A DNA stretch of 64,000 nt from assembly GCA_965227405.1 (NCBI GenBank), contig OZ245758.1, positions 2,804,338-2,868,337 of the forward strand, in the 5' to 3' direction. The position numbers were made by a program, and so were the translations under genes. Under the pieces are notes generated by a model that did no database searches, had not been told where the DNA came from, and was given only the letters and a program-made list of their open reading frames with translations. Of this stretch, positions 1,939 through 60,433 are shown one piece after another (within the stretch, counting starts at the first letter, position 1; the number at the start of each line of letters is the position of its first letter). The stretch comes from Polyangiales bacterium. GTDB lineage: Bacteria; Myxococcota_A; Polyangia; Polyangiales; Houyiibacteriaceae.

Positions 1939-2019
1939 GTGTTCTCCTCGGGCACGTGCCCGCTCCAAAAGGTGACAGAGGATACCCGATTCGTAGTTCT
2001 ACAATCGAGCCTAAAACCA

Positions 2020-20712: not shown

Positions 20713-22076
20713 CCGCCGGTGGGGTTCGGACCGTTGCGGCGGGCGCACAGCACGTCGTCGAGATGCCGCGCTTGGCCCTGGTGGTTCTCACCGGTGATGG
20801 ACGTGGTCGTGAGCACGTCATGGACAGCGACCTCTTTCGCATCGGAAAGAGCCGCGACAACGATTTGGTGCTGAGCGACCAAACCGTCTCGCGTGAACAC
20901 TGCGAGATCGTTCGTGAGGCGCGTGGGTACCTCTTGCGCGATCTGGGGTCGACCAACGGCACGCTGCTCGATGGGGCGGAGATCCGCGAAGTGTTCCTGC
21001 GTCCGGGGTCGATCCTGACGGTGGGAAAGATCGAACTGAAGGTGCGCACGTTTGCCGAGCGCATCGAAGTGCTTCCCAGCGAGAAGGATTTCTTTGGCGA
21101 TGTCGTGGGGCACAGCCAAGCGATGCGACAAATCTTTGGGTTGCTCGAACGTTTGGCGCCGAGCGATGCCACTGTGCTGCTCGGCGGCGAAACCGGAACC
21201 GGCAAGGACGTGCTGGCGCGTTCGATCCACGGTGCAAGCCCGCGCAAGGATCGGCCGATGATCGTGGTCGATTGTGGTGCCGTGGTCGGAACGCTGATCG
21301 AGAGCGAGCTCTTTGGTCACGAGAAGGGTGCGTTCACTGGTGCGTCCGCGCATCGCCAAGGCGCGTTCGAACTCGCCGACGGTGGAACACTCTTCCTCGA
21401 CGAGATCGGCGAACTGCCTTTGGACCTCCAGCCCAAGTTGTTGCGCGTGCTGGAGCAGCGTTCGTTCCGACGAGTCGGTGGCAACAAAGAAATCCGCGTC
21501 GACATCCGTGTGGTCGCGGCGTCGAAACGAAACCTCAAGATGGAGGTCGAGCGCGGCAAGTTTCGCGAGGACCTCTACTTCCGGTTGGCTGTGGTTCCAG
21601 TGGAGCTACCCCCGCTTCGTGAACGGCTCGACGACTTGCCGCTCTTGGTGGAGCGCTTGCTCGAAGACCTGAGCAAAGAGCAGCCCGATGATCCGGCGCT
21701 GACGATCGCGAAGTCCGCGTTGGATGCGTTGGGGGGTCACGACTGGCCCGGCAACATTCGCGAGCTTCGCAACGTGTTGGCGCGTGCGGCCTACTTGGCG
21801 CGCGGAGCCGGTGAGCACGAGATCCGATTGGGTCATGTGCCGGTGGGAATGAGCGGTGCGCCGCCCGACGCCATCATGCCGGCGTTCGACCCGGACATGA
21901 GTTACCGCGACACAAAATCCAAATTTGAAGTCGCGTTTGAGCGTCAGTACGTAGCGTGGTTGCTCGACCGCCACGACGGGAACATCTCGGCAGCCGCGCG
22001 TGCCGCAGATATGGACCGGAAATATCTGCACAAGCTGGCGAAGAAACACGGGGTTCACCCGTCAGATAAGAAGTAG
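20709..22076 (+). CDS. Sigma-54-dependent transcriptional activator with N-terminal FHA domain
   Basis: FHA ('[25 protein letters not shown]...LGSTNGTLL'), AAA+ sigma-54 interaction domain ('[15 protein letters not shown]', '[15 protein letters not shown]', '[11 protein letters not shown]'), C-terminal HTH. Confidence 0.9.
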
Positions 22077-24170: not shown

Positions 24171-24547
24171 TGTCCCGTGTCTTGGTTGTCGACGACGATC
24201 CCACCATATTGAGGATGGTCGAGCTCACGCTCGTCGACGCCAAACACGAAGTGGTTGTTTCGGACACGCCCATGGGTGTGAGCGCAATGGTTCGGCGCTT
24301 CAAACCGCACGTGTTGGTGCTGGACGTGATGATGCCGGGCCTGACCGGTGAAAGCCTTGCCAAGCTGATTGCGCGGATCGCCGATCGAACACCCGTGGTG
24401 TTCTTTAGTGCCACACCCGATGACGAACTTCTGGATCTAACGCGAAGAGTCCCCAACAGCACCTTTGTGCGAAAGGGCGACTCGCTGAAAGAACTCGTCG
24501 CGACAGTGGAGAAGATGGCGAAGCTCTACGCGTCTCAAACGCCGTAA
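24170..24547 (+). CDS. Single-domain CheY-like response regulator
   Basis: 'RVLVVDDDPTIL...VLVLDVMMPGLTG...K'. TGATG stop/start overlap with the upstream kinase. Confidence 0.8.
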   Translation: MSRVLVVDDDPTILRMVELTLVDAKHEVVVSDTPMGVSAMVRRFKPHVLVLDVMMPGLTGESLAKLIARIADRTPVVFFSATPDDELLDLTRRVPNSTFVRKGDSLKELVATVEKMAKLYASQTP

Positions 24548-24550
24548 GCG

Positions 24551-26269
24551 TTACCCCTCGCGTTCGAGCTGCGCGAACAAGTCCCGCAACTCACGCTTCA
24601 CACGCAACTGATCCGCCAACGCACTGGCCATGGTCATCAACTGCTTCTCGCACTCTTGGGCTTCCGCGCCGCCTTTGACCAAGAGCTGTTCGCTTGACTG
24701 CTTCTCGAGGAGGTACTTCCCCTCCAGTCGTTCGAGGTTTCCACGCAGCGCTTTGACCTGAAACTCCAGGTCCTGAACTTCGTCTTCTTTGGCCTTGACC
24801 CACTTGCGCGCTTTGTCGGCGGCACCGGTCGAAAGCGACCAGCGATCCATGGCGTCGGCCACTTCGCGCAGCGCTTTAGCGTAGCTCTCGTCCGGACGCT
24901 CCATCTGCTTGTAGCCGCCCAGCTCCATCAACTTCTGGTGTGCCTGCGTGTATGCGTTGCGACCCTGTGCCTCAGCATCGAAGTAGGGCGACACCTCGGC
25001 GGTTGCTGCGCGTGCGGCTTCGCGCGCTTGTGAGAGATCCTCGGCCAAACTCTGTACTGCAAAACCTAAGCGCGCACGGTTGTCGCGCGCCTGCGTTTCC
25101 AGTTCTTCGAGCTTGCGCTGTTCCTTCAGACCTTCGGATCGGATCTCTTGAACGCGTCGCAGCGTTCCTCGAAGCCCTTCGACCAAGCGCATCAAATCCG
25201 GAGGTGCACCCGTAGGGAACGCGCGCGCGACCATCTGATCAAAGATCGCAATCCGTCCCGCCCACTTTTCCAACGTGGTTGGCGGCAGTGTCGGCGCCAC
25301 GATCGGGCGACTGGGCGTAGCGGAAATCGGCGACACGGCTGGGCCGCCTTTGGGAACCAAGGCCTGCAGTTCCTTGATGACTTGGTGCGCGTCCACGGGC
25401 CGCCCGTCGGGCGTCTTGGCCATCATGCGCAGAATCAGTTCTTCAAGACGACGCGGGCACTGCGGCACAATTTCCGACGGCTTGGGCGGCGGCTCCTGCA
25501 TGTGCTTGATGAAGAAACCGGTGATCTCTTCGGCCTGAAAGGGCAGCCGACCGGTCAACATCTCAAACAGAATGATGCCCAGTGCGTAAAGGTCGGCGGC
25601 AGGTCCGGCATCGATACTCGTGATGCGCTCGGGAGCCATGTACTGCGGCGTGCCAAAGATCTCGCCCGCGTTCGTCAGCCGCGAGTCGTGCATCGAACGC
25701 GCGATACCAAAGTCGAGCAGCTTGACGATCTCGCGACCCGGACCGCCGTTGCAGATAAAGATGTTCTCGGGCTTCAGGTCGCGGTGAATGACATCAAAGT
25801 CATGCGCGCGTGCGAGACCTTTCGACATCTGCAGTCCCAGCGAAGCCACGCGTCCCGGGTCCATGGGGCCCATGCCGATCAGATGCGAGAGCGGTGCACC
25901 ATCGAGAAGTTCCATGACCATGAAGGGCGAGCCATCTTCGGTTTCGCCGTAGTCGTAGATCTCGATGATGTTGGGATGCGCCAGTGCTGCGGCGTTCTTC
26001 GCCTCACGTCGAAAGCGTTCGCGCAGCGACTTATCGCGCGCCATCTGCTGCGACATGATCTTTACCGCAACGGGTCGATCGACCAACGTGTGACGTGCGC
26101 GGTACACAACCGCCATGCCGCCCACGCCGATCGGACTCTCGACGAGATAACGACCCGCCAAGGTCTTGCCGATGTTGGGATCGGCCATTGGCTCGAGCGC
26201 AGCATTGTCGACGAAACAGCGGTCCTGATCGTCTTGGTACTGCAGGCCGCAGGTGGGACAGACCTTCAT
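24551..26269 (-). CDS. Ser/Thr protein kinase with N-terminal zinc-ribbon and C-terminal coiled-coil
   Basis: 'CPTCGLQY..C', 'GVGGMAVVY', 'VAVKIM', 'HRDLKPENIFI', 'DFGIA', 'GTPQYMAPE'. Long Glu/Arg/Leu coiled-coil tail. Confidence 0.85.
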   Translation of the reverse strand: MKVCPTCGLQYQDDQDRCFVDNAALEPMADPNIGKTLAGRYLVESPIGVGGMAVVYRARHTLVDRPVAVKIMSQQMARDKSLRERFRREAKNAAALAHPNIIEIYDYGETEDGSPFMVMELLDGAPLSHLIGMGPMDPGRVASLGLQMSKGLARAHDFDVIHRDLKPENIFICNGGPGREIVKLLDFGIARSMHDSRLTNAGEIFGTPQYMAPERITSIDAGPAADLYALGIILFEMLTGRLPFQAEEITGFFIKHMQEPPPKPSEIVPQCPRRLEELILRMMAKTPDGRPVDAHQVIKELQALVPKGGPAVSPISATPSRPIVAPTLPPTTLEKWAGRIAIFDQMVARAFPTGAPPDLMRLVEGLRGTLRRVQEIRSEGLKEQRKLEELETQARDNRARLGFAVQSLAEDLSQAREAARAATAEVSPYFDAEAQGRNAYTQAHQKLMELGGYKQMERPDESYAKALREVADAMDRWSLSTGAADKARKWVKAKEDEVQDLEFQVKALRGNLERLEGKYLLEKQSSEQLLVKGGAEAQECEKQLMTMASALADQLRVKRELRDLFAQLEREG

Positions 26270-26407
26270 GACGCGAGGTCGCCGAACATAGCATGAGCCG
26301 TGGTTAATAGACCTAACATCACCCTCGATCCTTAGCCCGCGCTGGCGCTACCATGCGCGCATGTTCGGACTCCCCCAACCAGCGCGCATTCGTGCACGGG
26401 GTGAGCT

Positions 26408-27688
26408 GTGACCGACCTGCTGGGTCGCTATGAACTCGTGGAGAAGCTCGCCACCGGGGGCATGGCGGACATCTTCCTCGCGCGCCAATGGGGGGACGGC
26501 GGCTTTGTTCGTGCGGCTGTCATCAAGCGGCTCCATTCGCACCTTGCCGAGCGTCCGGCGGTGCTCGATGACTTTCGCAACGAAGCGCAGTTGCTGGCGA
26601 TTCTGGAACACGACGCCATTCCGGTGATCTTCGACTTCCGCCACGAAGACGACACCTGGTTCTTGGCGATGCAGCACGTCAAAGGTCCGACGTGGGGTCA
26701 GGTCATTCGCGCGGAGAGGGACATCGGGCGCGTGATGCCGTGGACGATGGCCGTCACGATCGCGATGCAGCTTTGCGACGTGCTTGGCTACGTTCACGAC
26801 AAACGCGACGACGTCACCGGACAGTCGTTGGGAATTGTGCACGCCGACCTGAGCCCTGAGAACGTGATCGTGCGACACGACGGTGGCGTGAAGCTGCTCG
26901 ATTTTGGAATTGCGGGAAGTGCAGAGCACCGCGAGCGCCAAAGAGATCGAGATAAAGGGATTCGCGGAACGCTGGGGTACATCTCGCCCGAGCAAGTGGA
27001 CCATCGTCATCTTCCGGATGCGCGTTCGGATCTTTTTGTGCTTGGCGTGTTGCTCTTCGAGGCGACCACCGGAACGCGTTTGTATCCCGGCGATGGGCTC
27101 AACTTTATGAACGCGGTGCTCGATCGCGATCCCCCGCGGCCGTCCTCGCGTGTTGACGACTACCCCAAGGAGCTTGAGGAAGTCCTGATGAACGTGCTGC
27201 AGCGCGAGGCCGATGCTCGGCCACGAAACGCCCTGCAGTTCAAGGCGATGCTCCACGAGCTGGTGGGCGATCGAACGCACGGTTTGGCGAGCTACACCGA
27301 GTCGCTCTTTCCGAGCACCCAAGAGAAAACCCTCGCGATCAGCGCGCGACCCGAAGCGATTCAGGCGACTTCGATTCCGCCGGTGGAGCTTGCACCCGAT
27401 TCCGGAAACAACGAGTTGACGGCCGAGGAGCACGAAGAGGTGCTGCAGGATCTGCACGACCTCTTCTCACCCGACAGCGTGGAAATCGATGCACCTCGCG
27501 ACACGGCTCCTCCCGGTGCGTTGTCGGGAGACGGCGCAGAGTTGCTCGACTTGTATCAAGAACTCGACGGTGACTTGATTACCGACCCTTCGATCGACCC
27601 GCCACCGCCGCCGACGACCAAGATTCAGAGCAAGAAACCCAAGAGCGACGACGGCTTCTACATCTACACGGCTGACGACGAAAAGTAG
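26408..27688 (+). CDS. STPK-like protein with degenerate catalytic loop (probable pseudokinase)
   Basis: 'ATGGMADIF', 'AVIKRL', catalytic loop 'HADLSPENVIV' (HRD Arg and catalytic Lys both lost), 'DFGIA', 'GTLGYISPE'. Acidic C-terminal tail. Confidence 0.8.
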   Translation: MTDLLGRYELVEKLATGGMADIFLARQWGDGGFVRAAVIKRLHSHLAERPAVLDDFRNEAQLLAILEHDAIPVIFDFRHEDDTWFLAMQHVKGPTWGQVIRAERDIGRVMPWTMAVTIAMQLCDVLGYVHDKRDDVTGQSLGIVHADLSPENVIVRHDGGVKLLDFGIAGSAEHRERQRDRDKGIRGTLGYISPEQVDHRHLPDARSDLFVLGVLLFEATTGTRLYPGDGLNFMNAVLDRDPPRPSSRVDDYPKELEEVLMNVLQREADARPRNALQFKAMLHELVGDRTHGLASYTESLFPSTQEKTLAISARPEAIQATSIPPVELAPDSGNNELTAEEHEEVLQDLHDLFSPDSVEIDAPRDTAPPGALSGDGAELLDLYQELDGDLITDPSIDPPPPPTTKIQSKKPKSDDGFYIYTADDEK

Positions 27689-28221
27689 TGGGCACTCGAA
27701 CTCGGAAGCCGCGACCCAAACAGAGCAACTACATCACTCCAGAAGGGTTCGAGCGGATGCAGGCGGAGCTTTCGTTTCTCTGGAACGAAGAGCGTCCACG
27801 CGTGACCAAGGGTGTCGCGGAAGCCGCCGCGGAAGGCGACCGTTCGGAGAACGCGGAGTACATCTACGGCAAGAAGCGTCTTCGCGAGATCGACGCACGG
27901 ATTCAGTTTTTGGCCGATCGCGTGGATAAGGTGAAAGTCGTCGTTCCTGGTGAGCGCAGTCGTGACGACACCATCTTTTTCGGAGCGTGGATTCGTGCTG
28001 AAGACGAGGATGGCGAGGAGTACACGTATCGGATTGTGGGTCCCGACGAACACGACATGCATCCGCTGTACGTGTCGATGGACGCGCCGATCGGGAAGAC
28101 CTTGCTCGGGAAGCGTCTGGACGACGAAGTCTTGGTGAAACGCCCGAAGGGCGATCTGCTACTGACGATTCTCGAGATTCAGTACGAGCCGTTCGACGAT
28201 GTTGAAGGTTTCGATGAATGA
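27688..28221 (+). CDS. greB: Transcription elongation factor GreB-like
   Basis: 'YITPEGFERMQAELSFLWNEERPRVTKGV..GDRSENAEYIYGKKRLREIDARI' closely matches GreB. GTG start overlaps the upstream TAG. Confidence 0.8.
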   Translation: MGTRTRKPRPKQSNYITPEGFERMQAELSFLWNEERPRVTKGVAEAAAEGDRSENAEYIYGKKRLREIDARIQFLADRVDKVKVVVPGERSRDDTIFFGAWIRAEDEDGEEYTYRIVGPDEHDMHPLYVSMDAPIGKTLLGKRLDDEVLVKRPKGDLLLTILEIQYEPFDDVEGFDE

Positions 28222-28444
28222 GGACGAAATCGTTGTTCCCTGGAAGGACCTGAGCCCCGATGCGCTCAACGGCGTGATCGACGAATACGTCACGCGAGAG
28301 GGCACCGAATATGGGGCGCAGGACGTCCCGTTGGAAACGAAGCGCGCGCAAGTTCGGCGTCAGCTTGAGGCTGGAGAAGTCGTGGTTCTTTTCGACGCAA
28401 AGACCTCGACCACGAACATCGTGACCTCCGACCAAGTGCGGTAG
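28214..28444 (+). CDS. YheU/UPF0270 family small protein
   Basis: 'VVPWKDLSPDALNGVIDEYVTREGTEYG..ETKRAQVRRQLEAGEVVVLFD' parallels E. coli YheU ('IIPWQEL..TLDNLLESFVLREGTDYG...KVADVKRQLQCGEAVLVW'). Confidence 0.6.
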   Translation: MNEDEIVVPWKDLSPDALNGVIDEYVTREGTEYGAQDVPLETKRAQVRRQLEAGEVVVLFDAKTSTTNIVTSDQVR

Positions 28445-28456
28445 ACTCACCGCCCC

Positions 28457-30001
28457 GTGCGAGACGTCTACGCCAACCTACTCCGCGACACCCGCGGACT
28501 TCGACGTGAGCAATCCAAAGCGCGCGACGGTTGGTACGAGCGACTCGATTGGGAAAACAAAGAAGAGACGCTCTTCGAGCTGGAGATGCTGCTCAAGGGG
28601 TTCGCGTGCTTTGGCAATCCGCGAAACCACCCCGGTCCACAACGCCATGAAGCACCCGTCGCGCACGACTTTCGCGACGAGCTTCAAATCGTTCGCGACG
28701 CGTTGAGCCAGTCGATCGATCGCGTGCGACAGCTGCTGGGTCATCGTGATCGTGCGTACGTGTTTAGTCGGTACCTCGAGACCGTGCTTCCCGAAGACGC
28801 GTTGCGCAGCAAACTGATCAAAGAGCAGCTCAGTCAGGACACGCCCGAGGACTCGCTCTTCGTCTTGCGCAATACCTTCGGTTCGTTTCTCGAGCTTGCC
28901 GAGGGCATGGGTCGGCTTGGTCGCATCTCGCACCGCCAGTACTTCGCGCTCCTTGGCATGGTCACGCGCGAGATCGGCCGCAATACCTACTTCAATCCAT
29001 TGATCGCCCTGGAGTTTCGTCCGGAGTTCGATCGGATTCGAACGGCTGAAGTGCTCGAAGCGCTGCACACTTCGAGCGATCCCGCGCACCAAGTGGTTGC
29101 GGTGACATTCCTGAGTCTGTTTCGACTGCTTCGCTATGCGCGCTTGGTCGATCAGTACGCCTCCAAGCCTGCAACATCGCGGCGCGCGTACTTGATTTTG
29201 AGCGTGTTTCGAAGCGATGTCCGTGCGCTGACCCGCTATCTATCGCGACGTGCGCCCAATGGATTGGCCGACGGTTTTGAACGCAACATCCTCTCGGTTC
29301 CCCGCGGTGAACTGAAGAGTCGTTTTGAAGAACTCGCCGATCGCGGTGGGCGGCTCATCGCGCTTCGCTCGACGCTCGAAAGTCTGTCGAACGTGTTGCG
29401 CGTGGAAGTGCGACGGACATTCGAGCGCGATCTTCCTGCCCCTGGGCATGCACGTTCGAACGAACTCGGACCCTTGTTGGTGATTGCGACCGCTCAGCTG
29501 CGAGCCACCATTCATCACGCGATTCATCGATTGTGCAAAGAACTCAATCCCGCCGCGACGCCGCCCGTGCTCTCGTCGAGCGAAGTGGCGAGTGTCGATG
29601 CCGCCGAGCGTTTGCGACGCGACGTGTGGATGTTCCAACAAGTGTTGCGCGCGTTCTTGGCCAAAGCGAAAGCCAGTAAGGCCGAAGACCGGTGGGCGAA
29701 CTTTGCGAGCTTTCGCTTTGTTCGAGAGTTCCTCTCGCACTTTCGCGCGATCGGGTACCAGCTGGTGCGGGAGTCGGACTACACGCGTCTCGATCCCTTT
29801 CTTCATGCGCTCGACATGTTGCGGGACGTGGACCTGTTGGATCCGGAGAAGCTCGCGTCGATCGTGGAGGAGTGTCAGGCGCTCTATAAGTTTCTCGATC
29901 AGCTATTCGCGCAGATCTCGCAGCGAGCCGAGTTGGAAAAGCGAGTCTTTGATAAGCGTTCAGCCGCGGAGACTTTGAAGATCTACTTGGGTGCGGCGTA
30001 G
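28457..30001 (+). CDS. Hypothetical protein (514 aa)
   Basis: Long ORF, high-GC codon bias. No family recognised. Confidence 0.5.
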   Translation: MRDVYANLLRDTRGLRREQSKARDGWYERLDWENKEETLFELEMLLKGFACFGNPRNHPGPQRHEAPVAHDFRDELQIVRDALSQSIDRVRQLLGHRDRAYVFSRYLETVLPEDALRSKLIKEQLSQDTPEDSLFVLRNTFGSFLELAEGMGRLGRISHRQYFALLGMVTREIGRNTYFNPLIALEFRPEFDRIRTAEVLEALHTSSDPAHQVVAVTFLSLFRLLRYARLVDQYASKPATSRRAYLILSVFRSDVRALTRYLSRRAPNGLADGFERNILSVPRGELKSRFEELADRGGRLIALRSTLESLSNVLRVEVRRTFERDLPAPGHARSNELGPLLVIATAQLRATIHHAIHRLCKELNPAATPPVLSSSEVASVDAAERLRRDVWMFQQVLRAFLAKAKASKAEDRWANFASFRFVREFLSHFRAIGYQLVRESDYTRLDPFLHALDMLRDVDLLDPEKLASIVEECQALYKFLDQLFAQISQRAELEKRVFDKRSAAETLKIYLGAA

Positions 30002-30273
30002 CTACGTCGGTGGGTGCGAACTTTTTTAGTGGGAAATTTTGAAACCCAAAATTTCTATCCTGGTTCCCGCGATTGATGCCGTCCGTCGAGCCGGCTCAGC
30101 ATTCCGCTTCGCGGATCCGGAAGATTGGAAGGTTGGAAGCCAGGAAGGGCTCGGGAGCAAACTTTTTAGTGGGAGGACGCGAGGCTCGGAGACCGGAGAG
30201 ATTGATTTTCTCCTGGCAACGCGAACGAGAAGCCCGGAGTGGCGATCGATCGGATGCGAGACCCGAGGAGGTC

Positions 30274-30375
30274 GGGATTCCTATTAACCGGAAGCAGTAG
30301 AAGGCTGGAAGGCGGGAAGGTTTTGCATCGAAAAACCTTTCCGCCTTCTAGCCTTCCCGCGCTTCCGGCTAAAAT
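30274..30375. repeat. Copy 1 of an about 100-bp palindromic repeat (23-bp GC-rich stem 'gaaggctggaaggcgggaaggtt' nested in outer 'ccggaagc...gcttccgg' arms)
   Basis: About 95 % identical to copy 2 at 30814-30914. The two copies bracket a 122-aa ORF. Coordinates approximate (+/-2). Confidence 0.75.
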
Positions 30376-30426
30376 TGAAAGACTCCGCACGGAACACACG
30401 AGGCGTCTCTGAACTAGCATTGTTGC

Positions 30427-30795
30427 GTGCGCTATCCGATCGATCGCCACCTCGACACCGTTATCTTGTTCACGGAGGTCGAGTTCACTCCCGCAGCGTA
30501 CGAAGCACACGCTCGCTCTTTGCGAATGCGGATCGTTTCCGAGCAGGAGTTCCTTCCGTTCTGGCTGATGAAGAAAACCGGGTTTGCGATGATCTGGGTC
30601 ACACCGGTGTCGACTGTGCGAGTGCATTCCGTGTCGTTGCTCGACCACAAAGCGGATCCAAAGTCAGCGAACAAACTAGGAGTCGCCCTCGTGCAAACGG
30701 TCGACGCGCTGCAGGCTGGTTACGAGCACCTGTTTGAGCGTCCGGGTCGACCGCGTAAGGGTCACGACGTTCTGAGCTGGCCGGTGGAGTACTGA
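30427..30795 (+). CDS. Hypothetical 122-aa protein in the repeat-bracketed islet
   Basis: ORF with noticeably less GC3-biased codons (tat, gtt, ttg, act, gca, tct, cga...) than flanking genes. Flanked by the two palindromic repeat copies. Confidence 0.4.
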   Translation: MRYPIDRHLDTVILFTEVEFTPAAYEAHARSLRMRIVSEQEFLPFWLMKKTGFAMIWVTPVSTVRVHSVSLLDHKADPKSANKLGVALVQTVDALQAGYEHLFERPGRPRKGHDVLSWPVEY

Positions 30796-30813
30796 GCTAC
30801 TTGGCGTAGTCGT

Positions 30814-30914
30814 GGGATTCCTATTAACCGGAAGCGGGAGAAGGCTGGAAGGCGGGAAGGTTTGGTATCGAAAACCTTCCCGCCTTCCAGCCTTCCCGCG
30901 CTTCCGGTAAAAAT
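30814..30914. repeat. Copy 2 of the about 100-bp palindromic repeat (perfect 23-bp stem)
   Basis: 'gggattcctattaaccggaagcgggagaaggctggaaggcgggaaggtttggtatcgaaaaccttcccgccttccagccttcccgcgcttccggtaaaaat'. Confidence 0.75.
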
Positions 30915-31147
30915 GTTCGCCCACCCCACAAGCGGAGCGACGTGGACAAACCGGAGAACCGAAGCGCCCGAAGCATGTGCCGTTCAAAGAATGGCGGCAG
31001 TCCGATGAGTACTTGGCATTCCACGCGGCATGGAAGAAGCGTAAGACGCAAGTGATCGACGTGCGAGAAGAGCAACGCGATGGGAAAACTGTTCGCGTGG
31101 TGACCTACAAAAAGAAGTAGTCGGTCGCAGGGCAGGTACGCCGCGTA

Positions 31148-32536
31148 CTAGCGAGTACGAGGGCCAATAGCTTCGCGCAGAGCCATTGCCGCCCCTACTG
31201 GGCGCTCGTAGCCGATCGGCGCACGCACCAGCCGGATATCGGACTGCGTTTGCGGATCTCGATCGCGCCCAAACGCGTCTCCCACGATCAGCACGACTCG
31301 TGCCGCCGCCAGAAACGCTCCCCACAGCGGTCGCAGCTCCTCATCGGGCGGCAGTGAAAACAGCTCCAGGTTCGTTCCACCGATCGCCACGACTCCGATG
31401 GCTCCAAACGACCCTGCACCGGCCGGGGTCGGTGGCTCGGGCGCGGCAATAAACTCTTCGAGTCCACCCAGCGCTCGCGCAAAACGTGTGATGTCTTCGC
31501 GCGGTCCGCTCACGCCCAGTCGGACTGGACCTTCCACACCGGGTCGTCGCAAGCGAAGCGCTGCCGCACGCATCGCCGTCACCTCTTCGGGATCGCAAAA
31601 ACGAACTCGGTTGACCGCGTCGTACGCTTGCAGCACATCGCGGTCGATCAGCTCTGCAACGATACGCAGCACTTCCAGGTCATGCGCGGGAACCAAGTCG
31701 AGTAGCTCTTCGATCGAACGCGCTTCCTCGAGCGATGCGGTAATGCGCGCGACGAGTTCTGCCGAAAGGCCCTCCACGTTCTTCGGCTCGGCAATGCAGT
31801 GCACTTGCGTGGCCAAGCTGGGCAACTTGGTCTGCAGTTCTTTGAGTTCGTCGGCGTGACGAACGGCTTCCATCAACAGGAAGTCAGTACTGGCATCGAT
31901 GCGCTGTCGACCCGCTGTTCGATCGGGCAAAAACACAAACTGACCTTCGCTTAGCGCCAACACCCGAAACAGCGCTTTTTCGCCGGCGACAAAGCCACAC
32001 ACGGCATCCACGACGCGGCCTTCCTTGAGCCAAATCTGACCGCGGACACCGCCGCTCACAACGCTCAGCAAACCGGTGCGCCGGTTGGCGGCAAACACCT
32101 GCAGCAGGTCGAAGAGCGCAACCTGTTGCAGATCACCCTCGAGCTCTGGACCGGTTTCGGGTTCACGACGCGTCCGAATGACTTCGATGACGCGCGAGGC
32201 GACTTCTTCCGCGTGGAAGGGTTTGACGATCGGTTCGGCGCGCGGATGCAGCGCAGCAAGCTCGGTTGGGTCACCTTCACCCAGCACAAACACATGTGCG
32301 TCTGCGGTGTGCGGGTTGTCCGAAAGCACGTCGAGGAACGTGCGGATATCGAACACGCGCACATCGCGGTCGACCAGCACGACTTCAGCGTGCATCTCGA
32401 CCGCGTGTTTGAGTCCGCTTTGCCCGTCGGTGGCCAGTGACACGCGTGCACCGAGAGCGCGCAGTGTCTTCGCCAGTAGATCGAGGGTGTCGTAGTTCTC
32501 GTCGACGACAAGAACGCGGCCGGGATCGTCGTTCAT
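31148..32536 (-). CDS. Response-regulator receiver protein with DUF4388 domain
   Basis: N-terminal receiver ('RVLVVDENYD...VVLVDRD...K'). DUF4388 signature 'GDLQQVALFDLLQVFAANRRTGLLSV..GQIWLKEGRVVDA..GEKALFRVL'. Confidence 0.7.
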   Translation of the reverse strand: MNDDPGRVLVVDENYDTLDLLAKTLRALGARVSLATDGQSGLKHAVEMHAEVVLVDRDVRVFDIRTFLDVLSDNPHTADAHVFVLGEGDPTELAALHPRAEPIVKPFHAEEVASRVIEVIRTRREPETGPELEGDLQQVALFDLLQVFAANRRTGLLSVVSGGVRGQIWLKEGRVVDAVCGFVAGEKALFRVLALSEGQFVFLPDRTAGRQRIDASTDFLLMEAVRHADELKELQTKLPSLATQVHCIAEPKNVEGLSAELVARITASLEEARSIEELLDLVPAHDLEVLRIVAELIDRDVLQAYDAVNRVRFCDPEEVTAMRAAALRLRRPGVEGPVRLGVSGPREDITRFARALGGLEEFIAAPEPPTPAGAGSFGAIGVVAIGGTNLELFSLPPDEELRPLWGAFLAAARVVLIVGDAFGRDRDPQTQSDIRLVRAPIGYERPVGAAMALREAIGPRTR

Positions 32537-34434
32537 CCGACCTCCGGCTGCAGGTGATAGGTGCGCTGAAGTGCGGTGACGAGCCCGTCGACCAAGTCCA
32601 AATCGCTCGCGTGAAACGCCAGTACGGACTCGTCGCCCAAGTTGCGACCGGTCAACACGTATCCGCCCACCTCGGTCAGGCCCATCAGCAACACGCGATC
32701 GCGCAGACGCGCATCGTCGACGCGAAGTCGTCGTGCACCAGGCGGACTGGGTTGCTTGAGAATCCCCAGTTCGGAGCGCATCGGTTCAAGAACCCACGCA
32801 CGCACGGGACCGGTTTCGCCGATGTCCATCGACTGCACGACTGCGTTGGCAATGTCGTCGTCACCGGCGCAGTAGATCACACCACTGATGCGTTGCTGCA
32901 TGGCGTCGGCCGCAAGCGAAGCACCGATTCGCGGAAGCACCGCACGCGGGATCAGCGAGTGCCGCGAAAGCACGTCCTCAGCATTCGCGGCATCACCACT
33001 GAGCTTGAGACCTTCGGGCGTATCTTCGACGTCGGCTGCGCCGAGCACTTTGTCGAGTACTTCCCAAAAGGGCAGGTTCGACAACGACAAGCGACGCCAC
33101 ACGCCGTTGCGCGATTGATCGGAACGGCGTCGTGACACGCGAAGCAACCGACCGAGATCGGCACCATCCAGCGGGTAGACCGAAATTCCACACACCAGAT
33201 CCAACGCGGCGTCGGTCAGTTCTGCACTGGCCAACATCGCGGGGATCTCTTCGAGCGCATGAAAGCGCGTCAGGATGCGTCGTCGTGCGGCAAGCGCGCC
33301 GAGCAGACCGGTTTCGGGCAAGAGCAGAAACAACTCGTCGTCTTCGACGCGCGCAAGCACGTCGGAGTCGCGCACAGCGCCCAACACCGCGTCGGTCACC
33401 AGTCGGCGCAACGCGAGTCGAACATCGGGACCCGCTCGTTCGCGAACTTGCTCAAGTCCTTCAACACCCAGCGTCATCAAGGCGAAGCGACGACCATGAC
33501 GGGAGGCACGATCGATCTCACGACCCGCCACATCACCGAAGTACGCAAACGTGTAGGCGCTGGTCTCCGGGTCTTTGATGCCCGTGCGCGCAATCGCGTC
33601 GACCTTGCGCGAAGCCGCCAGTGCCGCAGTTCCCAACGATGCGACCACCGTGAGCGCATCACGCTGTTCGTCGTTGAGCGGTTCGATCGGAACCAACACG
33701 CAACATGCCGACACGTCTTGTTCGCCGAGAAACAAGATGCGCGTGAGGTGGTCGTCCTCTTGAACAGGTTGCGTAGGATCCATCGCCGACAGCGCTTCTT
33801 CGTCCAGCACCGGCGGGAGTTCGTCACCACCCACAACAGTGGCAGTGCGCAAGTAGGTCTGTGCGCCTGGAAAAGGCGGTGCGTAGATCGCGCCTGCAGC
33901 CAGTGGCAGCTCTTCAGCGCAGGTTCGTAGGATGCGCTCGGCGACCACTTGTTGGTCCGTCTCCGCGACGAACGCAGCACATCGCGCGTAAGTGGCCGTG
34001 CGCAATCGACCCCATCGCGCTTCTTCACCGAGCTTGTGGCGCTGTTGGAGCAGGATGCGTCGCTCGCGCGCCCGATCGATGGCGACGAGGAGCGAGTCGC
34101 CGGTCAGTGGGCGCATCACGGTCTGCAGCACACCCAACGCCATCGCGTGCGAGGCTTCTTCGAGATCTTGCGGCGTGGTCAGAACGATGACGTCGACGAG
34201 CGGATAGAGCGCGCGAAGGTGGTGCACCAGCGCGAGTCCATCTCCGCGCGGAAGCGAGAGCGACACCAGTGCAACGTCCACGTCACCACGTGCCAGATGC
34301 GCGACTGCATCGGGAACACGCAGAGCGATGTCGACGCGATCCCCACGTTCTTCGAGCACGCGCGCAGCAAACCCAGCGTCGCGTTCATCCGCCGCAACCA
34401 CCAGGATTCGCAACGTGCGAACGATCTCGGTCAC
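32533..34434 (-). CDS. Response regulator with degenerate GGDEF domain
   Basis: Receiver 'LRILVVAADERD..VALVSLSLP'. GGDEF-like 'DPETSAYTFAYFGDVAGREIDRASRHGRRFALMTLGVEGL...RVEDDELFLLLPET', with the GG[DE]EF motif replaced by EDDEL. GTG start at 34432-34434 overlaps the dapF stop (GTGA). Confidence 0.65.
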   Translation of the reverse strand: MTEIVRTLRILVVAADERDAGFAARVLEERGDRVDIALRVPDAVAHLARGDVDVALVSLSLPRGDGLALVHHLRALYPLVDVIVLTTPQDLEEASHAMALGVLQTVMRPLTGDSLLVAIDRARERRILLQQRHKLGEEARWGRLRTATYARCAAFVAETDQQVVAERILRTCAEELPLAAGAIYAPPFPGAQTYLRTATVVGGDELPPVLDEEALSAMDPTQPVQEDDHLTRILFLGEQDVSACCVLVPIEPLNDEQRDALTVVASLGTAALAASRKVDAIARTGIKDPETSAYTFAYFGDVAGREIDRASRHGRRFALMTLGVEGLEQVRERAGPDVRLALRRLVTDAVLGAVRDSDVLARVEDDELFLLLPETGLLGALAARRRILTRFHALEEIPAMLASAELTDAALDLVCGISVYPLDGADLGRLLRVSRRRSDQSRNGVWRRLSLSNLPFWEVLDKVLGAADVEDTPEGLKLSGDAANAEDVLSRHSLIPRAVLPRIGASLAADAMQQRISGVIYCAGDDDIANAVVQSMDIGETGPVRAWVLEPMRSELGILKQPSPPGARRLRVDDARLRDRVLLMGLTEVGGYVLTGRNLGDESVLAFHASDLDLVDGLVTALQRTYHLQPEVG

Positions 34435-35228
34435 GCGGGCAGAATCCCGTTGAAGACGTGCTTTGCGGGGCCCCGCATGTGGATGCCTTCGTCGCGAACC
34501 GTGATGGTGAGTGGACCACCAGGAAGTTTGATCGCAATGGGTTCGCCCACGACCGCGCGCTTGGTTTGAACCGCGGCAAATGCGGCTGCGCACGCACCGG
34601 TTCCGCAGGCACGGGTCCATCCAGAACCGCGTTCGAACACCCAGAGTCGAAAACCGCCCGGTATGTCTTCGGCAAACCCGACGTTCACGCTTTGCGGAAA
34701 CCGCGGGTCGGCTTGAAGGTCGGGTCCGAGCTGGAGACGCGCTTCACCGACGGGATCGAAGGTGACCAAGTGCGGGTTGCCCATGCCGACTGCCGTGAAG
34801 CGGATCGGCTTGCCGTCGACTTCACGCAACGCTTCGTCGACCACAGGTTGACCGCCTGTCACGGGAACGAGCTCCGGTGCGACGGTGCCTGCTTGCATGA
34901 CGACTTCGATGTCGCTCGTTCCGCGAATCCACGCGCGGTGCGGCCCTGCATCGGTTTGAATCGTGACTTCGTCGCCTTTGAGCGCACCGATGCGACGCAG
35001 GTGCCAAACCACACAACGCAGGCCGTTGCCGCACATCTCCGCGATGCTTCCGTCGGCGTTGAGAACCTGCATGGAAGGGTTCTTCGTATCGACCAAGAGC
35101 ACGCCATCGGCGCCAATACCGGTGTGCCGATCGCAGAGCTTCGCGGCGCGCGCGGCATCGATCGATCCCTCGCCTGTTTCGACGATGATGAAATCGTTCC
35201 CCAAGCCCTCGTACTTCGCGAACTTCAT
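34431..35228 (-). CDS. dapF: Diaminopimelate epimerase
   Basis: 'MKFAKYEGLGNDFIIV', 'CGNGLRCV', 'VGMGNPHLV', 'ERGSGWTRACGTGACAAA', the classic DapF signatures with both catalytic Cys. Confidence 0.9.
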   Translation of the reverse strand: MKFAKYEGLGNDFIIVETGEGSIDAARAAKLCDRHTGIGADGVLLVDTKNPSMQVLNADGSIAEMCGNGLRCVVWHLRRIGALKGDEVTIQTDAGPHRAWIRGTSDIEVVMQAGTVAPELVPVTGGQPVVDEALREVDGKPIRFTAVGMGNPHLVTFDPVGEARLQLGPDLQADPRFPQSVNVGFAEDIPGGFRLWVFERGSGWTRACGTGACAAAFAAVQTKRAVVGEPIAIKLPGGPLTITVRDEGIHMRGPAKHVFNGILPA

Positions 35229-35259
35229 CGCCTACGACGAACTACCACATCGAGCGGCG

Positions 35260-36519
35260 TCATCGGACGTGAACGTAAGTCGCGGGTTCTTCCCCGACAG
35301 GCCGCGGGAAAATCGCGGTCCATCCAGAGGGAAGCTGCGGTTCGCTCAGGTCGAAGAGGGTGCGTGCATCGCGCGGAGAGAGGTTCACGCAGCCGTGGCT
35401 CTTCCGGCGGCCGAACTGGTCGTGCCAGAACGCCGCGTGGAGGCCGTTGGAGCCCTCGAAGTACTGAACCCAAGGCACCCGTTCGATGGCGTAGTTGCTC
35501 TCGACATCGTCGCGCTCGAGGTTGTCCATGTCGCTGAACGCGAGCTTGACCCAGATGCGATGAACTCCCGCGGGAGTCTCGTGATGTCGACCCCGTCGAC
35601 CAGTACTGACCAGGGTCGCGAACGTGGGGGTATCGCCGCGATAGGCGACCAAGACTTGGTTGGCGATGTCCACGTCCATCCAGGTGGAGTGTTCCGGTAC
35701 GTCGTCAGGACGTGGTTCGTGACGTGCGACGACTAGATCGCGTTCGCGCATCCAGGTTCCATCGTTGAGTTCGGCCCAGCCGCGTTGAGTGCCGACGAGG
35801 TGAACGATCTCGCGTTGACCGGCTCGACGAGCGACGCGACCGTTGCGGCGTTCGAACACACGTGCGTTGCGGTTCTTCACCCATGCGACATCGAGCGTGC
35901 CGTTTTCGAGTTCGATGCCGTGGAACTGCGAACCGCGGGCATGGCGAACCTGATCGGCTTCAATGTAGATGCGACGGCGGGTGCGAACGAACGGAACTCC
36001 GTCGTAGACCGTGGATCCCGTGACGATGACGCCAAAGCCTTCGCCCAGTGCTTCGATGTACTGGTCGGCGAAGTAGTCGCTGGGGTGCGCGAACGCGCGT
36101 GTTCCGTCGTAGCCCACGAACGCGTAGTCGTGCGGAAGTAGCGCATCGGGTTCCATCAGGGGATGCGCGCGGGTTTGGGGATGTGAACGCGTAAATCGAA
36201 CGTCGCCTTCGCAAACGAACGTACCCGGTGCGAACTCGACCCAGCTGCGTGTACTGCAACCGTCACCGGCCACGCGTCGCAAGACCGGGAAGCGAGCACC
36301 GCGAGCGAGTGTTCCGCGACGCGTTGCACCGCGTTGAGGCGCGAGGAACACCGGTGCGTCGGCGTGGATGATCTCCACGCTTTGGGTTCCGTTTGGAGGT
36401 GGAGTCAGAGGCGTACCGGGCCGGAGCGACTGCGCCATGGCACCCGCTGCACACAACACCCCGATGGCGACGATCCAACGCACGCGACGATTATAGAAAC
36501 GCAGTTCACCGGAGCGCAC
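35260..36519 (-). CDS. L,D-transpeptidase (YkuD-domain) family protein, secreted
   Basis: Signal peptide 'WIVAIGVLCAAGAMAQS'. Catalytic 'SHGCVNLSPRDA'. Confidence 0.75.
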   Translation of the reverse strand: MRSGELRFYNRRVRWIVAIGVLCAAGAMAQSLRPGTPLTPPPNGTQSVEIIHADAPVFLAPQRGATRRGTLARGARFPVLRRVAGDGCSTRSWVEFAPGTFVCEGDVRFTRSHPQTRAHPLMEPDALLPHDYAFVGYDGTRAFAHPSDYFADQYIEALGEGFGVIVTGSTVYDGVPFVRTRRRIYIEADQVRHARGSQFHGIELENGTLDVAWVKNRNARVFERRNGRVARRAGQREIVHLVGTQRGWAELNDGTWMRERDLVVARHEPRPDDVPEHSTWMDVDIANQVLVAYRGDTPTFATLVSTGRRGRHHETPAGVHRIWVKLAFSDMDNLERDDVESNYAIERVPWVQYFEGSNGLHAAFWHDQFGRRKSHGCVNLSPRDARTLFDLSEPQLPSGWTAIFPRPVGEEPATYVHVR

Positions 36520-60089: not shown

Positions 60090-60237
60090 TTCGCGCTTCG
60101 CAGACGGAGCGGAATAAAGAATAGAGGAGAACTCTGCTACTCCTCTACTTCACTCCTCCCGGTACAATCATTCGCCCAAATCGCGGAACAGCTTCGCGGA
60201 CTGTGGTCACGCGACAGCGGGTCGAAATTTTATCACC

Positions 60238-60286
60238 TGAAGACGGGAAGACGAGAAGAGCACAACTTCCCGTCTTCCCGTCTTCA
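60238..60286. repeat. Perfect 16-bp-stem hairpin 'tgaagacgggaagacg...cgtcttcccgtcttca'
   Basis: Inverted repeat in the convergent 3' intergenic region. Not followed by a T-tract. Confidence 0.6.
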
Positions 60287-60433
60287 GGTAAAAACACTGA
60301 ACCAACACCTTCACGAACATCCAACATTGCGCATTGCTCATCTCACGTTGCGCATTGAGATTGAGATTGGGTCTGCTGCGCGCGCGGGCTCGTCATTCTC
60401 GATCTCATTGCGCGATGAGCACTGTGCAACCGA

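What the first reader, a model, noticed from the sequence alone, without database searches (positions are those of the whole stretch)
30001..31147. Low-GC islet: small ORF with atypical codon usage bracketed by two about 100-bp palindromic direct repeats
Seen in sequence: two about 95 % identical copies (30274-30375; 30814-30914) of a repeat bracket a 122-aa ORF (30427-30795). The repeat contains a 23-bp GC-rich perfect stem nested inside outer 'ccggaagc/gcttccgg' arms. The ORF's third-codon positions are far less GC-biased than in neighbouring genes. The region also has two 'ttttagtggga' direct repeats about 130 nt apart, an 'ggaaattttgaaacccaaaatttc' palindrome, and a possible 47-aa Lys-rich ORF (GTG 30977..31120). 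All of this sits between convergent chromosomal genes. Inference: a horizontally acquired cassette, a MITE or composite element, or a toxin/immunity-like insertion.
Basis: partly seen in the sequence, partly recalled or inferred. Interest (0 to 1): 0.55.

Follow-up and report, generated by a model that had tools for sequence, protein, structure and literature searches.

The report
Palindromic repeats around a decaying accessory gene
Between two conserved, convergent genes of a Sandaracinaceae (myxobacterial) chromosome lies a strain-variable 1.15-kb filler: a broken copy of a small orphan gene, bracketed by two copies of a 101-base hairpin repeat that resembles the ordinary extragenic palindromes of other bacteria, so it is interesting locally but not a new kind of system.

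Summary
The repeats are real. Two discrete units of about 101 nt (30274-30375, 30814-30914; about 93% identical, unrelated flanks) each fold into a 37-40-bp hairpin and bracket a 122-aa ORF.

The "atypical codon usage" claim is wrong: ORF GC1/2/3 is 0.63/0.41/0.71, like its neighbours.

The ORF is a real gene (pN/pS 0.17 against a 95%-identical relative). However, it is an in-frame, 69-codon-deleted copy of an undescribed family of about 190 aa, and it has lost all but one of the family's invariant residues.

The whole 30002-31147 stretch fills a hypervariable slot. Relatives with the same flanking genes carry one of three things:
- nothing (the two stop codons abut);
- a pectate-lyase-like gene;
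- a 1051-aa gene plus this cassette without hairpin 1, where a tRNA-Cys-like remnant sits instead.

The hairpin stem is three GGAAGGCN octamers plus their complement, a simple-sequence hairpin type also seen in Sorangium and in soil metagenomes. All five longest hairpins of the window lie in its three long convergent-gene spacers.

Hairpin 2 and its leader are 56/57 identical to the relative, against 83-86% for other non-coding DNA.

Best reading: a decaying accessory cassette with REP/MITE-like extragenic palindromes that probably act as U-tract-less terminators or RNA 3'-end protectors. It is not an integron cassette. A composite transposon is unlikely. Genome-wide copy number could not be tested.

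The parts
30002..31147 (.). Lineage-specific filler of a hypervariable slot between two conserved convergent genes
   Evidence: L099 is collinear with window 21510-29997 and 31160-36402 but carries unrelated DNA in between. An empty-slot allele is seen in the P0005 contigs. L002 has a different content.
30274..30375 (+). Palindromic repeat copy 1 (102 nt). It is the more degenerate copy, with two G.T pairs on the + strand and a 4-nt internal loop.
   Evidence: It is absent from L002/L003, where a tRNA-like remnant lies instead.
30814..30914 (+). Palindromic repeat copy 2 (101 nt). It starts 18 nt after the ORF stop and has a near-perfect stem of about 40 bp.
   Evidence: Its 5' arm is present at the same place in L002/L003, with 56/57 identity from the ORF stop onward.
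30427..30795 (+). 122-aa ORF: an in-frame internally deleted copy of a protein family of about 190 aa
   Evidence: pN/pS is 0.17 in this frame against 2.6-2.8 in the other frames. The full-length 191-aa homologue is in L002. The family was found with HMMER and aligned.
30737..30738 (+). Junction of the 207-nt (69-codon) deletion that removed the family's conserved core (W..LLVLLLNDEGDAHIGE.ATVDLRIAP)
   Evidence: BLAST blocks L002 4035-4380 = 30392-30737 and L002 4588-4702 = 30738-30852; alignments.
30024..30034 (+). TTTTAGTGGGA direct repeat, copy 1, inside a 27-nt block (30018-30044) that differs at one position from L002
30164..30174 (+). TTTTAGTGGGA direct repeat, copy 2, followed by the conserved block GACGCGAGGCTCGGAGACC
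30032..30055 (.). AT-rich palindrome GGAAATTTTGAAACCCAAAATTTC. In L002 the loop and one stem base differ.
30119..30150 (+). Run of four GGAAGNNN octamers, the same unit that builds the hairpin stems. It is largely missing in L002.
30099..30123 (.). 25-nt motif GCATTCCGCTTCGCGGATCCGGAAG, repeated exactly in inverted orientation at 60748-60772 in the other hairpin-rich convergent spacer
   Evidence: The GCTTCGCGGA core occurs 6 times in the window against 0.68 expected.
30239..30255 (.). Left arm of a 17-nt perfect inverted repeat. Its partner lies at 30434-30450, inside the ORF's 5' end, so the pair brackets hairpin 1. Ten of the 17 nt are the self-complementary CGATCGATCG.
30977..31120 (+). 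47-aa Lys-rich ORF, coding status unresolved
   Evidence: GC1/2/3 is 0.56/0.33/0.69, which is coding-like. There is no Pfam or NCBIfam hit and only two weak PHROG hits (E 0.014 and 0.035).
28457..30001 (+). Conserved left flank: a 514-aa hypothetical protein found across Sandaracinaceae
   Evidence: 1102 homologues, named Sandaracinus, Sandaracinaceae or Myxococcota by their sources.
31148..32536 (-). Conserved right flank: response-regulator receiver plus DUF4388/PatA_N protein
60226..60296 (.). Shorter hairpin built from GAAGACGG octamers, with similar flanks (TTATCACCTGAAG...CTTCAGGTAAAAA). It is possibly a diverged relative of the repeat.
   Evidence: Caveat: a sequence-unrelated hairpin scores the same with the model.

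Best explanation
Window 30002-31147 is the current content of a hypervariable accessory-gene slot. The slot lies between two conserved, convergent core genes of a Sandaracinaceae chromosome.

The slot holds a decaying cassette:
- an orphan gene of a family of about 190 aa that has suffered an in-frame 69-codon deletion of its conserved core (shown);
- conserved leader blocks upstream of it (shown);
- two copies of a discrete 101-nt extragenic palindromic repeat whose stem is three GGAAGGCN octamers plus their complement (shown).

Hairpin 2 belongs to the gene's 3' end and is held nearly unchanged between strains (shown). Hairpin 1 is a later or independent arrival that replaced a tRNA-like remnant (shown as a difference; the direction of change is inferred).

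The inferred mechanism is as follows. When transcribed, the long hairpins act as U-tract-less, possibly bidirectional, transcription stops or RNA 3'-end protectors and insulators in convergent spacers, as REP/BIME elements do in enterobacteria. They propagate as small non-autonomous REP/MITE-like units or by gene conversion or template switching among octamer-built hairpins.
For: Discrete repeat:
- The two copies are 92.6% identical over 95 nt, and the flanks on both sides are no more alike than shuffled sequence.
- The hairpins are very strong, z = -7 to -11.

Variable slot:
- Synteny breaks exactly at the two stop codons.
- There is an empty allele and two other contents.

Real but broken gene:
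- pN/pS is 0.17 in the ORF frame, against 2.6-2.8 in the other frames.
- HMMER found 17 family representatives.
- The deletion removes W151, L158, L160, L161, D167, H169, E172, D177 and R179 (P0124 numbering).
- It also removes four predicted beta-strands of a confident model (pLDDT 88).

Vertical history since the split from L002:
- pS is 0.145 for the ORF and 0.165 for the flanking gene.

Constraint on hairpin 2:
- Identity is 56/57 from the ORF stop through the 5' arm, against 82.5% and 85.7% for other non-coding blocks.
- The binomial probability is about 6e-4 at 16% divergence (my calculation).

Position:
- The five longest hairpins of the window all lie in its three long convergent spacers: this one, 60090-60781 next to serS, and the murB 3' end.
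- The other convergent pairs abut within 3-13 nt, apart from two pairs whose rough calls overlap by a few bases.

Hairpin type elsewhere:
- Octamer-built hairpins of the same type occur in Sorangium.
- They also occur in 25 of 95 soil-metagenome loci. By my reading of the extract, the L071 hairpin lies 11-13 nt from stop codons on both sides.

Strand hint:
- Both stem substitutions in copy 1 give G.T on the + strand only.
Against: - No T/U tract follows the hairpins on either strand, and the consensus terminator scan does not call them.
- There are no expression data.
- Hairpin 1 lies upstream of the ORF, so it is not at that gene's 3' end.
- Genome-wide copy number is unknown. The source genome is not in the searchable genome set. 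A search for spurious ORFs translated from other copies found nothing. No copy was found in about 85 kb of related Polyangia loci.
- The high identity of hairpin 2 could reflect concerted evolution rather than selection on function.
- The G.T argument rests on only two sites, and the 60230 hairpin shows the opposite strand bias.
- The covariance model scores a sequence-unrelated hairpin as high as the putative relative. Family membership beyond the two copies is therefore not shown.
Confidence: 0.5

Rival explanations
1. MITE or composite transposon. The two direct copies are the ends of, or independent insertions of, a mobile non-autonomous element that mobilised the ORF into this site.
For: - The repeat has sharp boundaries and unrelated flanks.
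- Copy 1 is present in the window and absent in L002/L003.
- Copy 1 differs from copy 2 by about 7%. That is more than copy 2 differs from its L002 orthologue (1 of 39). It hints at a third source copy elsewhere.
- TAA flanks both sides of the CCGG...CCGG palindrome in copy 2.
- The slot has an empty allele.
Against: - L002 has the ORF and hairpin 2 at the same position without hairpin 1, so the ORF did not arrive as a hairpin-bracketed unit.
- The copy 1 site is a 197-nt against 131-nt replacement, not a clean insertion.
- The 'TSD' lies inside the shared repeat unit, so it is not independent evidence.
- No transposase or integrase appears in any gene scanned: the syntenic 15 kb by the gene calls on L099, and the eighteen window ORFs run against Pfam.
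- The ORF's pS equals that of the core flank.
- No other copies could be found.
Confidence: 0.17
2. The hairpins are functionless by-products. Simple GGAAGGCN octamer tracts expand by slippage and become palindromic by template switching. The two copies are a local duplication drifting to decay together with the gene.
For: - The stems are low-complexity octamer arrays.
- A separate octamer run at 30119-30150 is largely missing in the 95%-identical relative, so these tracts change quickly.
- Arrays and hairpins of all lengths occur in unrelated metagenome contigs.
- Copy 1 is visibly degenerating.
- The neighbouring gene is already broken.
Against: - Identity is 56/57 for hairpin 2 plus its leader, against about 84% for other non-coding DNA.
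- The duplicated unit includes 14 nt of non-palindromic, non-octamer 5' sequence (GGGATTCCTATTAA) and has sharp ends.
- Long hairpins are confined to convergent spacers.
Confidence: 0.2
3. Toxin/immunity-type cassette. The protein of about 190 aa is an immunity or chaperone protein for a neighbouring large effector (the 1051-aa gene present in L002), and the window keeps only a remnant.
For: - In L002 the gene follows a 1051-aa protein of unknown function.
- The slot is accessory and variable.
Against: - There are no Pfam, PADLOC or PDB sequence hits.
- Two other family members have unrelated neighbourhoods without a large partner.
- In L002, 340 nt of spacer and a tRNA-like remnant separate the two genes.
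- No toxin domain was detected in the 1051-aa protein.
Confidence: 0.08
4. Integron-type gene cassette. The palindromes are attC sites of a cluster of attC sites lacking an integrase (CALIN).
For: - The pattern is small ORF followed by an imperfect palindrome of about 100 nt, repeated in direct orientation.
- The length lies within the attC range.
- An AAC triplet lies at the 5' end (TTAAC).
Against: - The 3' end reads GGCTAAAA or GGTAAAAA, so the near-invariant GTT of R' is absent. On the opposite strand GTT is present but AAC is missing.
- The stems are 37-40 bp and almost perfect, with symmetric internal loops only. There are no extrahelical bases and no R-box/spacer/L-box layout.
- No integrase lies in the syntenic neighbourhood.
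- Copy 1 is absent from the relative while the 'cassette' stays in place.
Confidence: 0.03

Closest known systems
REP / BIME extragenic palindromes of enterobacteria and pseudomonads (including REPIN doublets)
   Same: - Extragenic, strongly hairpin-forming and repeated.
- Concentrated at gene 3' ends and between convergent genes.
- Mixed with other short repeated motifs in the same spacers (here the 25-nt motif shared with 60748-60772 and the GCTTCGCGGA core).
- The known roles of REPs, which are mRNA 3'-end protection and termination or insulation, fit the position of hairpin 2.
   Different: - Each arm is a tandem array of octamers, not a REP unit that is itself a palindrome.
- No GTAG-type head and no RAYT transposase were identified.
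- High copy number, the hallmark of REPs, could not be tested. Only two clear copies were seen in 64 kb.
Bacterial MITEs and palindromic elements such as Correia/nemis, ERIC and RPE
   Same: - Size of about 100 nt.
- Whole-length imperfect palindrome (terminal inverted repeats).
- Sharp ends.
- Presence/absence polymorphism of one copy between close strains.
- Intergenic location.
   Different: - No independent target-site duplication.
- No cognate transposase.
- The polymorphic site is a replacement rather than a clean insertion.
- The stem is simple-sequence (octamer) DNA.
U-tract-less ('I-shaped') intrinsic terminators described for high-GC bacteria such as mycobacteria
   Same: - A long GC-rich hairpin shortly after a stop codon, without a T run.
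- A palindrome, so it is usable from both strands of a convergent pair.
   Different: - The stems here (37-40 bp) are far longer than usual terminators.
- Termination was not measured.
- One copy lies upstream of the gene.
Integron attC sites / CALIN arrays
   Same: - An ORF followed by an imperfect palindrome of about 100 nt.
- The units are in direct orientation.
   Different: - The conserved GTT/AAC pair, the extrahelical bases and the R/L box layout are all absent.
- No integrase is present.

Membership tests
REP/BIME-like extragenic palindromic repeats | Extragenic and hairpin-forming | tested here: met
   Both units lie outside the ORFs. z = -7 to -11 against shuffles.
REP/BIME-like extragenic palindromic repeats | Preferential location at gene 3' ends and in convergent spacers | tested here: met
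   The five longest hairpins of the window are all in its three long convergent spacers.
REP/BIME-like extragenic palindromic repeats | Tens to hundreds of dispersed copies per genome | not testable with these tools
   The source genome is absent from genome contigs. Only two copies occur in 64 kb. The indirect peptide search was negative.
REP/BIME-like extragenic palindromic repeats | Associated RAYT (IS200/IS605-like) transposase and a GTAG-type head | not tested
   None appears in the syntenic 15 kb or in the ORFs scanned. The rest of the genome was not available.
MITE | Terminal inverted repeats on a short non-coding unit | tested here: met
   40-nt arms, 83-93% complementary.
MITE | Target-site duplication that differs between copies | tested here: inconclusive
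   TAA flanks the palindrome of copy 2. However, the left flank is part of the shared unit, and copy 1 reads CTAA on the right.
MITE | Clean empty and occupied sites in relatives | tested here: not met
   Copy 1 is absent in L002/L003, but 197 nt are replaced by 131 unrelated nt.
Integron attC site | R'' RYYYAAC and R' GTTRRRY at the two ends on one strand | tested here: not met
   On the + strand the ends read TATTAAC ... GCTAAAA or GTAAAAA. On the - strand GTTAATA is present, but the other end reads TTTTAGC or TTTTTAC.
Integron attC site | Extrahelical bases and an unpaired central spacer between the R and L boxes | tested here: not met
   The predicted folds have symmetric 1x1 or 2x2 internal loops only.
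Integron attC site | Match to the IntegronFinder attC covariance model | not testable with these tools
   The model is not available here. Rfam has no attC family, and Rfam gave only hairpin-shaped miRNA chance hits below threshold.
Family of about 190 aa (P0124-P0138, undescribed) | Conserved core W..LLVLLLNDEGDAHIGE.ATVDLRIAP | tested here: not met
   The window ORF lacks alignment columns 132-206, which hold all but one of the invariant residues. It is therefore a remnant of the family, not an intact member.
Intrinsic (rho-independent) terminator, canonical | GC-rich stem followed by a T tract | tested here: not met
   The tails read CTAAAAT or TAAAAAT on the + strand and TTAATAGG on the - strand. 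The consensus scan does not call the units.

The most novel reading that the evidence does not exclude
Hairpins built from GGAAGGCN-type octamer arrays plus their complement are an undescribed structured element, widespread in Polyangia and soil bacteria. Examples are this window, Sorangium So ce1014 and about 25 soil-metagenome loci. Some share closing stems of the form AC-NN-GAAG...CTTC-N'N'-GT in which the NN positions covary. They could be a U-tract-less bidirectional terminator class, or a palindromic mobile element with an unknown mobilising enzyme. The two copies here would then be a recent propagation event.
Probability: 0.2. Interest if true: 0.5.

Novelty: new member of a known kind. 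Interest (0 to 1): 0.25.

Why it matters
- The result gives a worked example of an accessory-gene hotspot in a poorly studied myxobacterial family. Four states of one slot are seen: empty, two different unrelated genes, and a decaying cassette.
- It adds a small protein family of about 190 aa with no Pfam, NCBIfam or PADLOC match and a confident predicted fold.
- It points to a simple-sequence type of long hairpin, built from octamer arrays, that recurs in Polyangia and soil metagenomes.
- If these hairpins prove to be the terminators or RNA-end protectors of high-GC bacteria that lack U-tract terminators, they would help genome annotation and operon prediction in those groups.
- In itself the locus is ordinary genome decay plus extragenic palindromes.

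Tried and rejected
- **Rfam.** There were no hits at gathering thresholds in the whole window. The permissive scan gave only sub-threshold miRNA-precursor matches, which reflect hairpin shape.
- **tRNA.** ARAGORN found none in the window or in L001-L003. Only L002 has a tRNA-like remnant, by the Rfam tRNA model.
- **attC/integron.** Rejected on end motifs and stem architecture.
- **IS200/IS605-like architecture** (left-end and right-end hairpins around a gene). Rejected because the ORF family is not a Y1/HUH transposase, the hairpins are far longer, and the relative lacks hairpin 1.
- **Larger segmental duplication.** Rejected because the flanks are unrelated. The resemblance between the ends of the 514-aa gene and of the ORF is not significant (12% of shuffles reach it).
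- **Copy-number estimates.**
  - The genome-contig scan found only a Sorangium hairpin.
  - The metagenome scan found octamer arrays and hairpins but no unit with the GGGATTCCTATTAACC flank.
  - Viral contigs, plasmids and phages gave nothing.
  - The search for spurious ORFs translated from other copies gave nothing.
- **Exact look-up of window proteins in the contig index.** It failed.
- **AlphaFold on the 3-sequence alignment.** The model was useless, pLDDT 39.
- **afdb50 fold library.** It was not available.
- **Covariance model R1 as a family detector.** With filters off it also hits the sequence-unrelated murB hairpin at the same score. Hits near 34 bits therefore show hairpin shape, not homology.
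- **Literature searches** for the stem sequence and for REP or MITE elements in myxobacteria. They found nothing relevant.
Full report
**1. The observation**

Reading 29700-31500 and the repeat finder confirm two direct copies of a unit of about 101 nt, at 30274-30375 and 30814-30914.
- BLAST gives 92.6% identity over 95 nt.
- The stem core GGCTGGAAGGCGGGAAGGTTT occurs only in these four arms in the 64-kb window, against 0.00 expected.
- Each unit folds on its own into one long hairpin. The outer arms are CCGGAAGC/GCTTCCGG, followed by a small symmetric internal loop, an inner stem of 24-25 bp and a loop of 7-8 nt.
- The DNA folding energies are -35.2 and -46.4 kcal/mol, z = -7.0 and -11.4.
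- Local alignment of the sequences just outside the units scores no better than shuffles. The repeat is therefore a discrete unit with sharp ends, GGGATTCCTATTAACCGG...CCGG(C)TAAAAT, and not part of a larger duplication.

One claim fails. The ORF's GC1/GC2/GC3 is 0.63/0.41/0.71, indistinguishable from its neighbours (0.66/0.42/0.69 for the 514-aa gene; GC3 0.66-0.74 overall). The GC dip of the region is small: 0.55-0.59 against a window mean of 0.61.

**2. Organism and flanks**

Homologues of the left-flank 514-aa protein are labelled Sandaracinus, Sandaracinaceae or Myxococcota by their sources. The right flank is a receiver plus DUF4388/PatA_N protein. The source contig is 9,074,070 bp. It is not in the searchable genome collection.

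**3. The slot is hypervariable**

- *L099.* This metagenome contig (514-aa protein 88% identical; about 77% nt) is collinear with window 21510-29997 and 31160-36402. Synteny therefore breaks exactly at the two stop codons. In between it carries an unrelated 550-aa pectate-lyase-like gene.
- *Two Logan contigs of another relative* (514-aa protein 89% identical). Gene calls put the 514-aa gene at 295-1839 and the convergent PatA_N gene at 1840-3249. The second contig repeats this pattern (1619/1620). This is an empty slot (gene coordinates only, no DNA was returned).
- *L002 and L003* (94-96% nt identity). L002 has the end of the 514-aa gene, then an extra 1051-aa gene absent from the window, then the same cassette.

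**4. The ORF is real but broken**

Against L002, the ORF frame shows 13 synonymous and 7 non-synonymous differences. pN/pS is 0.17, whereas the other two frames give 2.6 and 2.8. The frame has therefore been under purifying selection.

Its pS (0.145) matches that of the flanking core gene (0.165). The gene has been co-inherited with the flank since the two strains split. It is not a recent arrival.

In L002 the protein is 191 aa. The window copy lacks 207 nt (69 codons) in frame after ...YEHLFE.

An exhaustive HMMER search found 15 more representatives, most of them about 180-200 aa, with E values down to 1e-20. Aligned, they share an invariant core W..LLVLLLNDEGDAHIGE.ATVDLRIAP. That core lies entirely inside the segment deleted in the window.

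The family has no significant Pfam, NCBIfam, PADLOC or PDB sequence match.

The genomic contexts of two family members are unrelated to each other and to this locus.

The window's ORF is best called an in-frame remnant that has lost four predicted strands and nine of the ten invariant residues.

**5. History of the two hairpins**

Hairpin 2 starts 18 nt after the ORF stop. Its 5' arm is present at the same place in L002 and L003, where both contigs end.

From the stop codon through that arm, 56 of 57 positions are identical. The upstream spacer is 82.5% identical with many indels, and the 35-nt ORF leader is 85.7% identical. At about 16% neutral divergence, one or fewer differences in 57 has a probability of about 6e-4 (my calculation). 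Either the element is constrained or it is homogenised by conversion.

Hairpin 1 is missing from L002/L003. Window 30195-30391 (197 nt) is replaced there by 131 unrelated nt. Those 131 nt include a tRNA-like remnant on the minus strand:
- Rfam tRNA model, 29.6 bits;
- model positions 8-63;
- anticodon loop CUGCAAG, which reads as GCA (Cys);
- no acceptor stem;
- ARAGORN is negative.

Copy 1 is the more degenerate copy, with a larger internal loop and two C-to-T changes. It differs from copy 2 by about 7%, which is more than copy 2 differs from its L002 orthologue. Copy 1 is therefore either older than the strain split and lost in L002, or it came from a third copy elsewhere. Which of these is true cannot be settled here.

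Both stem changes in copy 1 keep G.T pairing on the + strand only. That is a weak hint (two sites) of an RNA-level role on that strand.

A 17-nt perfect inverted repeat (30239-30255 and 30434-30450) brackets hairpin 1 and reaches into the ORF's 5' end. Ten of its 17 nt are the self-complementary CGATCGATCG.

**6. What the stem is made of**

The arms are three tandem octamers, GAAGGCTG GAAGGCGG GAAGGTTT, and their complement. A separate run of four such octamers lies at 30119-30150 and is largely missing in L002.

- The 21-mer hit one genome outside this lineage, Sorangium sp. So ce1014, and there it is again one arm of a hairpin.
- A 20-mer hit 95 metagenome stretches, mostly soil or rhizosphere samples.
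- None of these hits has the unit's GGGATTCCTATTAACC head. They are tandem GGAAGGCN arrays.
- In 25 loci the array is followed by its complement and forms hairpins of varied length.

The stem therefore belongs to a recurrent simple-sequence hairpin type. It is not evidence of a conserved homologous element.

A covariance model built from the two copies also hits 60226-60296 in the window. That is a GAAGACGG-octamer hairpin with similar ends: ACCTGAAG...CTTCAGGTAAAAA against ACCGGAAG...CTTCCGGTAAAAA. With filters off, however, the model scores the sequence-unrelated hairpin at the 3' end of murB (63169-63265) equally well. I therefore treat 60226-60296 as only a possible relative.

**7. Where long hairpins sit in this genome**

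The five longest short-loop inverted repeats of the whole window lie in just three places:
- this slot;
- the 692-nt spacer between an ABC-transporter-linked gene and serS (60090-60781);
- the murB 3' end.

All three are convergent spacers next to housekeeping genes. The other convergent pairs in the window abut within 3-13 nt, apart from two pairs whose rough calls overlap by a few bases.

The two largest spacers also share an exact 25-nt motif in inverted orientation (30099-30123 and 60748-60772). They are also enriched for GCTTCGCGGA: 6 copies against 0.68 expected.

This mosaic of palindromes and short motifs at convergent 3' ends is the pattern known for REP/BIME elements. That comparison rests on my knowledge of those families.

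**8. Mechanism**

*Shown:*
- a discrete, duplicated, strongly folding unit;
- placement just after a stop codon and within a convergent spacer;
- unusual conservation of hairpin 2.

*Inferred:* when transcribed from either strand, the unit forms a hairpin of 37-40 bp. That hairpin stops or pauses transcription without a U tract and/or blocks 3' exonucleases. It would insulate the convergent genes and the cassette gene from each other.

*Against:* there is no T tract, there are no expression data, and hairpin 1 lies upstream of the ORF.

*Propagation:* spread as a small non-autonomous element is suggested by the sharp ends and by the copy 1 polymorphism. It is not shown. There is no independent target duplication, no clean empty site and no transposase, and the copy number is unknown.

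**9. Comparison and verdict**

The attC reading fails on its defining ends and on stem architecture. The composite-transposon reading conflicts with L002, which keeps the ORF and hairpin 2 without hairpin 1.

The locus is best filed as extragenic palindromic (REP/MITE-like) repeats inside a decaying accessory cassette in a chromosomal hotspot. That is a new member of a known kind. Interest is modest. The more novel possibility, that octamer-built hairpins are a widespread undescribed functional class, is not excluded, but it rests on shape and composition only.

Noticed in passing
Metagenome loci L004-L098 (e.g. L007 1278, L008 1650, L022, L024, L063, L091): Tandem arrays of the octamer GGAAGGCN are common in soil and rhizosphere metagenome contigs: 95 stretches share one exact 20-mer. 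Several arrays start about 10 nt after a TATAAT-like box and end just before an ATG. One example is L007/L016/L029/L035, upstream of a Tat-signal-like MMFDTDRRRFMG protein. That placement suggests purine-rich 5' leaders. In 25 loci the array is followed by its complement and forms long hairpins.
   Followed up: partly
window 60090-60781: This is a second long convergent spacer, between an ABC-transporter-linked gene and serS, and it is packed with palindromes. It contains a GAAGACGG-octamer hairpin (60230-60294). It also contains inverted hexamer arrays (CATTCC)n / (GGGAAT)n at 60434-60547, 30-nt arms at 60587-60719, and four of the window's six copies of GCTTCGCGGA.
   Followed up: partly
window 63169-63265: A hairpin of about 32-40 bp, sequence-unrelated to the repeat and lacking a T tract, overlaps the stop codon of murB (62104-63201) in a convergent spacer.
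   Followed up: partly
L002 3957-4013 (- strand): A tRNA-Cys(GCA)-like remnant with D, anticodon and T arms but no acceptor stem (Rfam tRNA 29.6 bits; ARAGORN negative). It sits where the window has hairpin 1. It may be a relic of a tRNA-targeted integration.
   Followed up: partly
L002 574-3729; L099 8606-10258: The same slot holds other accessory genes in relatives. One is a 1051-aa protein with no family match apart from a weak TPR hit. The other is a 550-aa pectate-lyase-like protein.
   Followed up: partly
Proteins P0124-P0138 (relatives of window 30427-30795): A small protein family of about 190 aa with no Pfam, NCBIfam or PADLOC match. It has the invariant motif W..LLVLLLNDEGDAHIGE.ATVDLRIAP and ends in WPVEY. 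The predicted alpha/beta sandwich is confident (pLDDT 88) and weakly resembles the Mog1/PsbP, DcrB and Eag-chaperone folds.
   Followed up: partly
window 28457-30001: The 514-aa left-flank protein has more than 1000 homologues, those that carry names being Sandaracinaceae or other Myxococcota (60% identity to Sandaracinus amylolyticus), but no Pfam or NCBIfam family.
   Followed up: no
window 30018-30044 and 30164-30194: Two blocks that contain TTTTAGTGGGA are almost unchanged between the window and L002. The surrounding spacer is only about 82% identical and has many indels. They may be regulatory sites or promoter elements of the cassette. No sigma-70-like promoter was called.
   Followed up: partly
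window 2768-2826 and 44966-45021: There is a 6-nt tandem repeat (TCTTCG x 9.8) and a perfect 21-nt tandem repeat (x 2.7). The second lies inside a long ORF (42121-46167, - strand); the first lies just downstream of a small called ORF and inside two long uncalled ORFs.
   Followed up: no
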